DNA of 43,250 nt. Source: Candidatus Saccharimonadales bacterium. Its GTDB lineage: Bacteria > Patescibacteriota > Saccharimonadia > Saccharimonadales > 2-12-FULL-41-12. Position numbers and translations under genes: made by a program. The stretch spans positions 1 to 43,250 of the forward strand of contig JAYRJB010000014.1 of the NCBI GenBank assembly GCA_041906505.1, given 5' to 3'. The notes under the pieces are model-generated. The model had not been told where the DNA came from. It searched no databases and worked only from the letters and a program-made list of their open reading frames with translations. Positions 24,215 to 27,055 of this stretch are shown one piece after another; the stretch's first letter is position 1; each line of letters opens with the position of its first letter.

Positions 24215-25306
24215 ATGGAAAATCTTGAGAAGGAACTAGAGGTTTTTAGAAAAGAAGTGCATACTGCGCTCCAATCTTTTGGGTATGACAAGAAGTTGGG
24301 AACATATAAATCGCTAGTAGAGGTTTCTGAGCGGCCGGGTTTTTGGGACGATAGTTCTGAGGCCCAGAAACACATGCAACAACTTGCCACCCTCAACTCA
24401 AGCCTAGAACCATGGACGGAGTTGCGACGACAAACCGAAGAACTCAATGAGCTCGTAAAACTCGGCGATGATTCTCTGCGACAAGAGTTACAAGAAAATC
24501 TAAAACGAGCAAAAAATTTGTTCAACAAAATCAAAGTTGATCTTCGTTTTAACGGCACCCATGACGATCACAGTGCAATCTTGAGTATCTATAGTGGCGC
24601 AGGTGGGACAGATGCCCAAGATTGGACGCAGATGCTAGCAAGGATGTACTTTAGATGGGCAGAAAAACATAAGTTAAAGCTTGGTGTACTCGAGGAATCT
24701 CCCGGCGAAGAGGCGGGGCTCAAGAGCGTTCGTTATGAAATTGATGGCCCAAATGTCTATGGCAAACTGAGGGGCGAACACGGTGTTCATAGACTGGTTC
24801 GGCTTAGCCCATTTAATGCGAATAATCTTCGCCAAACAAGTTTTGCAAAAGTAGAAGTGCTTCCAAAAATTGTTGCAAAAACAGAGTTACCTTTGGACGA
24901 ATCTGACTTAAAGATAGATGTGTATAGAGCTGGCGGTCACGGTGGTCAAAGTGTAAATACGACTGACTCAGCGGTTCGAATCACGCACCTGCCGACGGGG
25001 ATTGTGGTAAGTATCCAAAACGAACGGTCCCAACTGCAAAACAAAGAAACAGCCATGACAATAGTGCGTTCAAAACTGGCACAACTGCAATTAGAACAAC
25101 ACAAAGAAAAACTGAGCGAACTAAAGGGTCCCAACCAGTCAGCCGAGTGGGGTAATCAGATAAGATCGTACGTGCTCCACCCTTATAAACAGGTTAAAGA
25201 TCTCCGTACGCGCTACGAAACTTCAGATCCAGATGCTGTGCTAGACGGTGACCTAGACGGTCTGATTGACGCCTATCTAGAGCACGACTTAAGTAAGGCA
25301 GCATAA
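24215..25306 (+). CDS. prfB: Peptide chain release factor 2 (no internal frameshift)
   Basis: GAGGTDAQDW, GEHGVHRLVRLSPF (SPF), GGQSVN, WGNQIRSYV. Uninterrupted 363-codon ORF. Confidence 0.97.
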   Translation: MENLEKELEVFRKEVHTALQSFGYDKKLGTYKSLVEVSERPGFWDDSSEAQKHMQQLATLNSSLEPWTELRRQTEELNELVKLGDDSLRQELQENLKRAKNLFNKIKVDLRFNGTHDDHSAILSIYSGAGGTDAQDWTQMLARMYFRWAEKHKLKLGVLEESPGEEAGLKSVRYEIDGPNVYGKLRGEHGVHRLVRLSPFNANNLRQTSFAKVEVLPKIVAKTELPLDESDLKIDVYRAGGHGGQSVNTTDSAVRITHLPTGIVVSIQNERSQLQNKETAMTIVRSKLAQLQLEQHKEKLSELKGPNQSAEWGNQIRSYVLHPYKQVKDLRTRYETSDPDAVLDGDLDGLIDAYLEHDLSKAA

Positions 25307-25384
25307 TTGACTTTGACAATAATGTCGAAGTTATGGCAAAATATTCTTCATAAGGTATAAGTGTGTGAGCTTAGGAGTTTTGGC

Positions 25385-26332
25385 ATGGAGATTAAGGGCA
25401 ACGGACTAACCGTACAAGTTGATCCCGCAGAACAAACGGATCAGTGGCTTGTGAGCGCGGCAACAGAAATTCGTGAAGCTGCTGAGGCGCGAGGCTTAGA
25501 AGTACCCGCCTTTACTGGCTTGGTGGCGGTAGAAGGTGCGACTGGTGAGATTGACGTAGATACAACCGCTGAGATCGAACGATATGAAGTTAATCCAGCT
25601 GACGTGAAAGAATCTCTTCTTGGGCAGCTTGATACTGCATTTCGTGGCTATAAGACAGTTGCCGAACACATCAATGGAGGTCGAAAGCCGAAAGAACAAG
25701 TCGCGGTAGCCGATCAAGAAACGGTAGCAACAGAACTTGCAACTTGGTTAACTGATGAAAAAGTTGAATACATTGCTCGCGCCCAAGGAGCTGACCCAAG
25801 CTTGCGCTGGACAGTAATTGCTTCGCCAAACAATGTTGAGGTTGATCCTAAAGAAGCCCAAAAGCTGGCGATAGAATTCGGTAAAAACCAATCCCATCAA
25901 GCCTTCACGTGGAGCTCCATCTGGAGCCCCATCTTAATACGCTATACGGCCGCAGAACTTTCCGGTACTGATGCTAGTAACGGCAATAAAATACGTTTTG
26001 CCGCTGTACCAAGCAAACCGACCCCAGAACTTTACGGTACAGTTGCTGCTCAGCGCGATGCGTTGGCTAAACTGCAAGCCGACATGCCCGATGTTAGGGT
26101 CTCTAGTTATTTAGACGATCTAGTGTACTGGCATACGCTCCGCGCCCAAGGTGATGATCTTGCTCATGGTGATGTCTTTGGTCGAACCTACAACTGTCAC
26201 TTTGACTTGCCCGAACAGAGCTTTGGCCGCGATAGCCACGTGCTCGACTCGTATGTCCGCAGCAGTGGCATGCCGAGCGTGGATGGATCGGATTTTCTCG
26301 GTGTCCACCACGGTCGTGCCCTGGTTGGGTAA
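25385..26332 (+). CDS. Hypothetical protein; candidate DGR target with a variable-region-like 3' end
   Basis: AGGAG at 25373-25377 fits ATG 25385. The final 36 codons are A-poor and mostly NNC/NNT. The DGR interpretation is inference. Confidence 0.7.
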   Translation: MEIKGNGLTVQVDPAEQTDQWLVSAATEIREAAEARGLEVPAFTGLVAVEGATGEIDVDTTAEIERYEVNPADVKESLLGQLDTAFRGYKTVAEHINGGRKPKEQVAVADQETVATELATWLTDEKVEYIARAQGADPSLRWTVIASPNNVEVDPKEAQKLAIEFGKNQSHQAFTWSSIWSPILIRYTAAELSGTDASNGNKIRFAAVPSKPTPELYGTVAAQRDALAKLQADMPDVRVSSYLDDLVYWHTLRAQGDDLAHGDVFGRTYNCHFDLPEQSFGRDSHVLDSYVRSSGMPSVDGSDFLGVHHGRALVG

Positions 26333-26374
26333 AACCTAACGCAAGCCAAACGGTTTGATGCTATAATAGTGCTA

Positions 26375-27055
26375 ATGATTCTGCTAGACAGGGTAACAAA
26401 AACATACACCAAAGAAGGAAACGCGCTCGAACGGATCAATCTTCATGTTGAGCCTCGAGAGTTTGTGATTGTCGTTGGCCCAAGCGGTGCCGGTAAGTCA
26501 ACTCTGTTAAAACTCCTCACCCGAGAAGAAAAACCCAGTAGCGGCAAAATAATTGTCGGCGGCATAGACTACGAGCAACTGAAAGACCGAAATATCCCAC
26601 AACTCAGAAGAAGAATAGGAGTCGTGTTCCAAGATTTTAAGCTGCTGCCTAACAAAACCGTTTTCGAAAACGTGGCCTTTGCGCTCGAGATTGTGGGAAT
26701 GAGCAACCGCGAAATTAAACACACCGTGCCAAAAGTGCTGCAAATTGTAGGCCTAAAAGACAAAGCCAAAAGTTATCCGCGGGAGCTTTCTGGTGGTGAG
26801 CGACAGCGGGTAGCAATTGCAAGGGCCATTGTCCGACAGCCAAAAATTTTGATCGCTGATGAGCCAACCGGCAATCTTGACCCAAAACACGCCTGGGACG
26901 TTATTCGTGTACTAGAAAAAATAAATCGATATGGTACCACCGTATTGTTGACGACACACAACCAAGAAATTGTAAATAAACTCAAGCGACGAGTGGTCAC
27001 CATCAAGGACGGCAAAATAATTAGTGACAAAGCCGGCGGGAGCTACGAGCTATAA
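26375..27055 (+). CDS. ftsE: Cell division ATP-binding protein FtsE
   Basis: GPSGAGKS, LRRRIGVVFQDFKLL, LSGGERQR, ADEPTGNLD. Precedes ftsX. Confidence 0.95.
   Translation: MILLDRVTKTYTKEGNALERINLHVEPREFVIVVGPSGAGKSTLLKLLTREEKPSSGKIIVGGIDYEQLKDRNIPQLRRRIGVVFQDFKLLPNKTVFENVAFALEIVGMSNREIKHTVPKVLQIVGLKDKAKSYPRELSGGERQRVAIARAIVRQPKILIADEPTGNLDPKHAWDVIRVLEKINRYGTTVLLTTHNQEIVNKLKRRVVTIKDGKIISDKAGGSYEL

What the first reader, a model, noticed from the sequence alone, without database searches (positions are those of the whole stretch)
25385..26360. Candidate remote target of a diversity-generating retroelement between prfB and ftsE
Seen: an orphan gene with its own SD in a conserved core junction. 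By my count its last 110 nt (26221-26330) are about 62% GC and about 13% A. Of the last 36 codons, 27 end in C/T and only 1 ends in A (CGC GAT AGC CAC GTG CTC GAC TCG TAT GTC CGC AGC AGT GGC...GTC CAC CAC GGT CGT GCC CTG GTT GGG TAA), while A-ending codons are common upstream. The protein ends G-R-hydrophobic-x-V-G. Established: DGRs mutate template adenines, so AAC/AAT codons become NNC/NNT at the 3' end of C-type-lectin-fold targets, and CPR genomes are rich in DGRs including remote targets. Inference: this is a variable region whose template repeat and RT lie elsewhere or were lost. It could be a hypervariable ligand-binding protein. No TR, RT or clear GC hairpin is visible in this window.
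Basis: partly seen in the sequence, partly recalled or inferred. Interest (0 to 1): 0.68.

Follow-up and report, generated by a model that had tools for sequence, protein, structure and literature searches.

The report
Frozen DGR variable region, retroelement gone
The odd, adenine-poor 3' end of this Saccharibacteria gene is a genuine variable region of the kind written by diversity-generating retroelements. Relatives still carry the template repeat and reverse transcriptase beside the gene, but this genome and its sister species have lost both, so the region is a frozen relic and not a live hypermutation target.

Summary
ORF 25385-26332 (315 aa) ends in about 110 nt with 62% GC and 12.7% A. 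Of its last 36 codons, 27 end in C/T and 1 ends in A. No other long ORF in the genome combines these features.

The DGR reading is right about origin. The protein belongs to an unannotated Saccharimonadales family (375 cluster representatives). At least 12 homologues have a cassette of VR, a TR about 400-430 nt downstream, and an RT (sometimes with bAvd). Their VR/TR cores show 0-1 non-adenine mismatches against 7-24 adenine mismatches. The window's VR is colinear with these. Its NNC/NNT codons sit where relatives' TRs have AAC/AAT/GAC, and its fixed codons are nearly adenine-free.

"Remote target" is not supported. The 98.7%-complete genome has no RT, Avd or TR, and neither does its congener. 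ftsE starts 36 nt after the stop codon. In the congener the VR is identical on 34 contigs from at least 12 samples. DGR-bearing relatives, by contrast, vary only in the VR.

The rest of the gene is under purifying selection (dN/dS 0.19), so it is probably a working protein with fixed specificity. The C-type lectin fold is only weakly indicated.

The parts
25313..25342 (+). Promoter-like site upstream of the gene (TTGACA, 18-nt spacer, CAAAAT preceded by TG)
   Evidence: Consensus scan, 10 of 12 matches. This is a pattern match only; function was not shown.
25373..25377 (+). Shine-Dalgarno AGGAG, 7 nt before the ATG
   Evidence: Read from the sequence.
25385..26332 (+). ORF of 315 aa (P0001). 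It is a member of an unannotated Saccharimonadales family whose other members are DGR variable proteins.
   Evidence: Translation. No Pfam, NCBIfam or PHROGs hit. 22 homologues. Profile match E = 3e-134. 375 cluster representatives.
25385..26218 (+). Conserved N-terminal and central part (residues 1-278), under purifying selection
   Evidence: Alignment A1. dN/dS is 0.19 against the congener. AF2 pLDDT is mostly above 85 for residues 70-315.
26219..26329 (+). Fossil DGR variable region (codons 279-315). Adenine-free scaffold codons (V286, S289, V291, G295, P297, S302, G310-R-A-L-V-G) are interleaved with about 18 NNC/NNT codons.
   Evidence: Codon-for-codon colinearity with VR/TR pairs of 12 cassettes. 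The variable codons lie where relatives' TRs have AAC/AAT/GAC. The window's VR mismatches the closest TR at 18 of 29 TR-adenine sites but at only 17 of 76 other sites, p = 2e-4.
26309..26341 (+). Conserved VR 3' end (GGTCGTGCCCTGGTTGGG TAA) plus AACCTAAC. It resembles the IMH-like end and first post-stop bases of cassette-bearing relatives.
   Evidence: Comparison of VR and TR ends. Relatives have VR ...GTGGGGTAAAAC(T/C)T against TR ...GTGAGGTAT. In relatives a CT-rich tract and a hairpin follow; both are missing here.
26333..26368 (+). 36-nt spacer to ftsE. There is no room for a TR. Its last 23 nt are identical in the congener.
   Evidence: In relatives the TR lies 399-432 nt downstream of the VR.

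Best explanation
ORF 25385-26332 encodes a variable protein of a Saccharimonadales-specific DGR target family. Its last 37 codons are a variable region that was written in the past by mutagenic retrohoming. In that process a DGR reverse transcriptase copies a template repeat into cDNA, misincorporates at template adenines, and the cDNA replaces the VR.

In this genus the template repeat, Avd and reverse transcriptase are gone, so the VR is frozen in one state. The gene lies in the prfB-ftsE junction with its own promoter-like site and SD. The non-VR part is under purifying selection. It therefore most likely still makes a protein with a fixed binding specificity. That binding function is inferred, not shown.

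Shown here: the family is a DGR target family; the window's VR is colinear with proven VRs; RT and TR are absent; the VR is frozen in the sister species.

Inferred: the timing and route of the loss, and the present function.
For: (1) Complete cassettes sit next to homologues. Examples are G014, G039, P0008 and P0013 (the last with bAvd), plus eight more. The 105-nt cores show 0-1 non-A mismatches against 7-24 A mismatches.

(2) The family co-occurs with RTs. 21 of 35 family-positive genomes have RVT_1, against 8 of 41 in a sample of relatives. The RT usually lies 1-2 kb downstream on the same contig.

(3) The window's VR matches the family scaffold codon by codon. Of its 19 codons at TR-adenine positions, 16 end in C or T. 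Its 18 fixed codons hold 3 A in 54 nt.

(4) The window's own genome has no second copy of the VR. An adenine-tolerant scan found no TR. There is no RVT_1 hit at E <= 1. tblastn with relatives' RT and Avd proteins found nothing. The protein profile picks up TRs in seven other genomes but none here.

(5) The congener G001 has the same prfB-X-ftsE layout with the same 36-nt spacer and also lacks RT and TR.

(6) The G001 gene was seen on 34 contigs from at least 12 samples, with 0 differences in the VR. DGR-bearing clusters (P0017/18/29, P0022/32-34) are identical except in the VR.

(7) In a tree built without the VR, window + G001 nest (97/97 support) among cassette-bearing members.

(8) dN/dS is 0.19 outside the VR and 1.18 inside it.
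Against: The assembly has 15 contigs, and DGR loci often break assemblies, so an RT on an unassembled or unbinned replicon cannot be formally excluded.

The window's own species is represented by a single contig.

Between the two congeners, the 18 variable codons differ at 22 of 36 first/second positions but at only 5 of 18 third positions (p = 0.04). This suggests DGR writing continued after the gene reached its present RT-less locus, which a simple 'one ancestral deletion' story does not explain.

The expected C-type lectin fold is only weakly supported.
Confidence: 0.85

Rival explanations
1. Live remote target. The VR is still diversified by a TR/RT encoded elsewhere in the same cell, on a replicon or contig missing from the assembly such as a plasmid, a phage or an unbinned fragment.
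For: The assembly is fragmented into 15 contigs. In relatives, contigs often break inside the RT gene at a tetranucleotide tract. The excess of first/second-position over third-position differences between congeners implies writing happened after the gene reached this RT-less locus. The IMH-like 3' end is largely retained.
Against: No RT half, Avd or TR was found in a 98.7%-complete genome. None was found in the congener either, which has 6 contigs and carries the gene on a 476-kb contig. The congener's VR is identical on 34 contigs from at least 12 samples. The CT-rich tract and hairpin that follow the VR in cassettes are absent. Wu et al. [quoted passage not shown]
Confidence: 0.08
2. Single ancestral loss followed by drift. 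TR and RT were lost once, before the two species split. All VR differences between them are ordinary substitutions at unconstrained positions.
For: Both species have the same RT-less junction, with 23 identical spacer nucleotides before ftsE. VR dN/dS is about 1.2 with dS of 0.4-1.1 in the region, close to neutral expectation. Scaffold positions have begun to drift: S302Q and V299I in G001, and A/V304F in the window.
Against: At the variable codons, first/second positions are far more diverged (61%) than third positions (28%). Third positions are still C/T in 16 of 18 and 17 of 18 codons. Neutral drift in an A-rich genome should have blurred this pattern. The 13 nt just after the stop codon differ strongly between the species.
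Confidence: 0.3
3. Not DGR-related. The adenine-poor, NNY-rich end is a compositional accident or an ordinary conserved C-terminal motif.
For: There is no TR or RT in the window. Ten other long frames in the genome reach the same codon-ending threshold.
Against: Homologues sit in at least 12 textbook cassettes. The variable columns coincide with TR adenines. Only this ORF combines the codon pattern with low A. Orthologues are hypervariable exactly here.
Confidence: 0.02

Closest known systems
Patescibacteria/CPR diversity-generating retroelements (CPR set of Wu et al. 2018, PMC5758913; DGR clade 2 of Roux et al. 2021, PMC8144416)
   Same: The homologues' cassettes have a C-terminal VR, a TR a few hundred nt downstream, an RT with or without bAvd, adenine-only mutagenesis, and a single uncharacterised target gene.
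   Different: The window has only the target gene. TR, Avd and RT are absent from the genome. Surveys that start from the RT cannot detect such loci (Roux et al. state this for remote targets).
Bordetella phage BPP-1 Mtd and the TvpA-type C-type-lectin-fold variable proteins (from my own knowledge)
   Same: A C-terminal VR of about 110 nt whose AAY-derived codons are interleaved with fixed scaffold residues and which ends in a G-R-x-x-V-G-like motif. The weak top fold hits are all C-type lectins.
   Different: There is no sequence similarity to Pfam Mtd, FGE-sulfatase or DUF1566 models. No significant structural match was found (E >= 0.3). The C-terminal 120 aa do not fold confidently on their own.
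Remote or non-adjacent DGR targets, e.g. the Treponema DGR with seven non-adjacent targets (Wu et al. 2018, PMC5758913)
   Same: A VR-bearing gene without an adjacent TR or RT.
   Different: Remote targets have a matching TR and an RT elsewhere in the same genome. None is present here.
Earlier finding of this scan on the congener's orthologue (e1-5129773)
   Same: Same gene family, same prfB-ftsE locus, same conclusion (frozen VR, retroelement gone).
   Different: It concerns a different species. The VR sequence differs at 16 of 19 variable codons.

Membership tests
DGR variable (target) protein | The VR pairs with a template repeat in the same genome, and differences are essentially confined to TR adenines | tested here: not met
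   No TR was found by blastn, by an adenine-tolerant ungapped scan of all 15 contigs, or by the protein profile that finds TRs in seven other genomes. The feature is met by at least 12 homologues.
DGR variable (target) protein | A DGR-type reverse transcriptase encoded in the same genome | tested here: not met
   PF00078 gave no hit at E <= 1, and the control genomes responded. tblastn with five relatives' RT pieces gave only chance hits to a Mur ligase and a membrane protein.
DGR variable (target) protein | VR scaffold homologous to VRs of proven targets, with variable codons at TR-AAY positions and adenine-free fixed codons | tested here: met
   Codon table. Mismatch to the closest TR is 18 of 29 at A sites against 17 of 76 at other sites, p = 2e-4.
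DGR variable (target) protein | IMH-like conserved 3' end of the VR and a downstream structure that guide homing | tested here: inconclusive
   The 3' end GGTCGTGCCCTGGTTGGGTAA is retained with two changes relative to P0008. The downstream CT-rich tract and GTCTTTGC...GCAAAGAC hairpin seen in several cassettes are absent. Function cannot be tested in silico.
DGR variable (target) protein | C-type lectin (or Ig) fold displaying the VR | tested here: inconclusive
   The AF2 model has pLDDT 83. Foldseek against PDB put C-type lectins at ranks 1-5 and several more below, but with E = 0.33-0.83 and TM 0.35-0.41. Nothing was found in BFVD. The domain-only model was poor.
DGR variable (target) protein | Population-level hypervariability confined to the VR | tested here: not met
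In the congener there were 0 VR differences on 34 contigs. It is met in DGR-bearing relatives.
Unnamed Saccharimonadales protein family (alignment A1; short ~300-aa and long 650-780-aa forms) | Full-length sequence homology, with the shared domain ending at the C-terminus | tested here: met
   Identity to 21 homologues is 32-75% over 83-100% of the query, and 96-100% for 17 of them. Profile E = 3e-134. 375 representatives, with the match always ending at the protein's end.
Remote DGR target (sense of Wu et al. 2018) | A cognate TR and RT present elsewhere in the same genome | tested here: not met

The most novel reading that the evidence does not exclude
Hit-and-run diversification. The gene was already sitting without a TR in the prfB-ftsE junction when a trans-acting DGR rewrote its VR independently in the two species. 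That DGR was possibly mobile, and possibly of the phase-variable type seen next to the close homologues. It then disappeared from both lineages.

If so, reduced CPR genomes would carry fossil VRs that record past DGR activity. Such fossils could be mined without an RT, and could show how a hypermutated binding site becomes fixed once a useful specificity is found.
Probability: 0.3. Interest if true: 0.55.

Novelty: new member of a known kind. Interest (0 to 1): 0.4.

Why it matters
DGR surveys start from the reverse transcriptase, so target genes that have outlived their retroelement go unseen. This locus shows that such fossils exist in reduced Saccharibacteria genomes. They can be recognised from sequence alone by adenine-free scaffold codons interleaved with NNY codons.

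The locus also adds an unannotated protein family (375 cluster representatives, no Pfam model) to the list of DGR variable proteins.

Finally, it offers a natural comparison. The same protein is live-diversified in some lineages and frozen in others. That comparison could help identify the ligand and show what happens to a hypervariable binding site once mutagenesis stops. For this genome alone, the practical result is modest: an annotation as a DGR-family variable protein with an orphaned VR.

Tried and rejected
- Pfam, NCBIfam and PHROGs scans of the protein, of all 22 family members and of a long-form homologue found nothing meaningful.
- A PDB sequence-profile search gave only one chance hit at E = 0.35.
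- Foldseek against BFVD found nothing.
- Folding the C-terminal 120 aa alone, to sharpen the C-type lectin test, gave pLDDT 55.6, so that model was not searched.
I used the genome search across the order instead.
- Weak tblastn hits of relatives' RTs to C2:171759-172205 and C10:72079-72288 were inspected. They are a membrane protein and a Mur ligase, not RT remnants.
- I looked for RT or TR remnants next to both G001 copies and found none.
- I first took the large VR difference between the two congeners as proof of post-split DGR activity. With dS of 0.4-1.1, neutral drift explains much of it. Only the contrast between first/second and third positions (p = 0.04) still favours DGR writing, so the claim was weakened.
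- A GC-rich hairpin after the VR is not present.

Full report
**Observation.** The ORF runs from ATG 25385 to TAA 26330-26332 and encodes 315 aa. AGGAG lies 7 nt upstream of the ATG. A promoter-like site, TTGACA-18-(TG)CAAAAT, lies at 25313-25342.

Positions 26221-26330 are 61.8% GC and 12.7% A, against 45.8% GC and 29.2% A for the window. Of the last 36 codons, 27 end in C/T and 1 ends in A.

This is unusual for the genome. At most 14 A in 110 nt falls in the lowest 0.5% of windows. The codon pattern occurs in 0.06% of 36-codon windows. Only this ORF couples the codon pattern with low A.

**What the gene is.** No Pfam, NCBIfam or PHROGs model matches. A protein search found 21 homologues, all hypothetical proteins of Patescibacteria.

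In their alignment the first ~278 residues are ordinarily conserved. The last ~37 show invariant scaffold residues (V286, S289, V291, G295, P297, S302, G-R-x-x-V-G at the end) alternating with columns that hold almost any residue reachable from NNC/NNT codons.

A profile search of 1.84 billion cluster representatives found 375 members. The matched domain is always at the C-terminus. Members come in ~300-aa and 650-780-aa forms. In the window's taxonomic order, 35 of 401 species carry the family, and its distribution across genera is patchy.

**The family is a DGR target family.** Homologues in G014 and G039 have an RVT_1 reverse transcriptase 1-2 kb downstream. A direct repeat of the gene's last ~110 nt lies 413-420 nt downstream.

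The same layout holds for P0008 (VR, TR at +423, RT) and for P0013 (VR, TR at +399, bAvd, RT).

In these pairs every mismatch in the core is at a TR adenine. A systematic pass over the loci fetched up to that point found 12 distinct cassettes with 0-1 non-adenine and 7-24 adenine mismatches in 105 nt.

Of the 35 family-positive genomes, 21 have an RT, nearly always next to the family member. In a general sample of relatives the figure is 8 of 41.

Proteins clustered at 90% identity from DGR-bearing lineages are identical except in the last ~35 residues (P0017/18/26-29 and P0022/32-34). Those lineages have a cis DGR in a convergent layout. This family therefore shows every hallmark of live DGR diversification elsewhere.

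**The window's VR.** Aligned from the stop codon, the window's last 38 codons are colinear with the VRs and TRs of the cassettes.

- Where at least 8 of 12 TRs carry an adenine at codon position 1 or 2 (mostly AAC, AAT or GAC), the window has GGC, CGC, CAC, GAC, TAT, CGC, AGC, AGT and so on. 16 of these 19 codons end in C/T.
- Where the TRs have adenine-free codons (GTG, CCG, TCG, GGY, CGY...), the window has the same or synonymous codons. These fixed codons hold only 3 A in 54 nt.
- Against the TR of the closest cassette-bearing relative (P0008), the window's VR mismatches at 18 of 29 adenine sites but at only 17 of 76 other sites (p = 2e-4).

The scaffold is adenine-free by design, and the variable codons are mutated AAY codons.

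**No retroelement in this genome.** The window is contig 8 of a 720,734-bp, 15-contig assembly estimated to be 98.7% complete.

- There is no second copy of the VR.
- An adenine-tolerant scan of both strands of all contigs found no TR.
- There is no RVT_1 hit at E <= 1, and the control genomes responded.
- tblastn with relatives' RT and Avd proteins found only chance hits.
- The genome has no tetranucleotide tract of 16 nt or longer.
- The protein profile detects TRs as short hits to positions 264-301 in seven other genomes but finds none here.
- ftsE begins 36 nt after the stop codon, which leaves no room for a TR.

The congener G001 has the orthologue (75% identity by BLASTP) in the same prfB-X-ftsE position with the same 36-nt spacer. 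It also has no RT or TR.

G001's gene was recovered on 34 contigs from at least 12 samples, in two alleles. These differ only in a 15-nt patch at nt 269-326. The VR shows zero differences. So in this genus the VR is frozen.

**Origin and timing.** In 12 of 22 other genomes of the same family, prfB and ftsE are adjacent, 25-103 nt apart. The gene is therefore an insertion specific to this genus.

In a tree built without the VR, window + G001 nest with 97/97 support among cassette-bearing members. Orphan copies arise at least five times in the family.

Between the two congeners the non-VR part has dN/dS 0.19, so the gene is maintained. The VR has dN/dS 1.18.

Synonymous divergence is high (0.4-1.1), so neutral drift could account for much of the VR difference. 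However, at the 18 variable codons, first/second positions differ at 22 of 36 sites while third positions differ at only 5 of 18, and third positions are still C/T (p = 0.04). This modestly favours DGR writing after the lineages separated. That would require a trans-acting or independently lost retroelement. The point is unresolved.

Some scaffold positions have started to drift: S302Q and V299I in G001, and A/V304F here. This is expected once a TR no longer rewrites them.

**Structure and function.** The full-length AF2 model is confident (pLDDT 83; residues 70-315 mostly above 85).

Foldseek against the PDB gives no significant hit. Ranks 1-5 and several lower ones are all C-type lectin domains, with E = 0.33-0.83 and TM about 0.4. 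That is a lead, not a demonstration. BFVD gave nothing, and the isolated C-terminal 120 aa fold poorly.

There is no N-terminal hydrophobic segment, so export, if any, is not by a classical signal peptide. This is inference.

By analogy with characterised DGR variable proteins, the VR most likely forms a ligand-binding surface. Here its specificity is fixed.

**Comparison with the literature.**
- Wu et al. 2018 describe 126 CPR DGRs, most with unclassifiable VRs and uncharacterised targets. They usually have one target gene, and remote targets were seen only in another lineage (PMC5758913).
- Roux et al. 2021 define a Patescibacteria-restricted DGR clade and note that their RT-anchored approach cannot see remote targets (PMC8144416).
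- An RT-less, TR-less VR is thus a state of a known system that standard surveys miss.
- An earlier agent of this scan reached the same conclusion for the G001 orthologue. I saw that note only after my own analysis.

**Side finding.** The RTs next to the ~300-aa family members (motif YDVWSCR) carry a long tetranucleotide tract (AGTC, AGAC, AGCC or AGCA; 29-121 nt). It lies inside the ORF between the motifs YDVWSCR and IGNLTSQ.

Of 12 complete cases, 3 are in frame and 9 are out of frame. The RT subtype next to the long-form targets (YDAWSCR) has no tract and is always intact.

In one species, with identical flanks, the tract is 121, 89 or 44+21 nt in three samples. This fits slipped-strand ON/OFF switching of the DGR.

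No paper in the searchable library links DGRs with tetranucleotide repeats. Several earlier findings of this scan describe the same kind of switch.

**Limits.** The window's species is known from a single contig. Absence of the RT rests on an incomplete, though 98.7%-complete, assembly.

Noticed in passing
L025 5349-5390; L029 8199-8253; L061, L064-L072, L078, L080; L119, L122, L123 (relatives, not in the window): The DGR reverse-transcriptase genes next to the ~300-aa family members contain a 29-121-nt tetranucleotide tract (AGTC, AGAC, AGCC or AGCA), always between motifs YDVWSCR and IGNLTSQ. 3 of 12 are in frame and 9 of 12 are out of frame. Within one species the tract is 121, 89 or 44+21 nt with identical flanks. 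It looks like a slipped-strand ON/OFF switch of the retroelement. Earlier scan findings describe the same phenomenon. Short-read assembly of long repeats is a caveat.
   Followed up: partly
L024 (G014), L042 (G340), L077 (G158), L044 (G110), L046 (G370): The long-form (650-730 aa) targets, with their intact tract-free RTs (YDAWSCR type), are nearly identical in genomes assigned to five different taxonomic families (end branches 0.02-0.13 in the tree). This suggests recent horizontal transfer of the whole cassette.
   Followed up: no
L031 (P0016), L032 (P0019), L048 (G186), L051 (G259), L052 (G011), L027 (G001 paralogue): Other family members also lack a TR within 1.5 kb, and several of their genomes lack any RT. 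Orphaned VRs are therefore recurrent in this family.
   Followed up: partly
L027 4163-5092 (G001:C1:105162-106091) versus own genome C2:194263-194307: G001 has a second, 41%-identical paralogue next to a stretch whose translation looks tRNA-like (judged by eye; no tRNA scan was run). It has no TR or RT. In the window's genome the flanking genes are directly adjacent (43 nt apart), so the paralogue is absent there.
   Followed up: partly
prfB-ftsE junction in L106, L109, L110, L113 (other genera of the same family): The same junction holds other, unrelated small genes in some genera. These include two apparently homologous 168/197-aa proteins and a 279-aa gene on the opposite strand. The site is variable.
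   Followed up: no
L081-L088 versus L089-L094, gene nt 269-326: The two G001-species alleles differ by 15 substitutions packed into 58 nt (residues ~90-109...HINGGRSREEQ versus ...HINGGRKKKEQ). The rest of the gene (939 nt) is identical. This looks like a recombination patch.
   Followed up: no
P0026-P0029: Some cluster members carry VRs that are half one allele and half another (P0027, P0028). The same VR also occurs on two different N-terminal alleles (P0026, P0029). These may be recombinants or metagenome-assembly chimeras of co-existing VR variants.
   Followed up: no
window 26369-27052 (ftsE) and 24215-25306 (prfB): FtsE is 100% identical in protein between the two congeners despite dS of 0.62 (dN/dS about 0.00). 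prfB has dS of 1.13. The inserted gene between them evolves far faster.
   Followed up: no
own genome C12:89924-94693 (minus strand): A 1,590-codon frame encodes Kelch-like 'YV(I/V)GG' repeats rich in N, T and G. About 300 of its codons almost never end in A. It is not adenine-poor overall, and it was not examined further.
   Followed up: no
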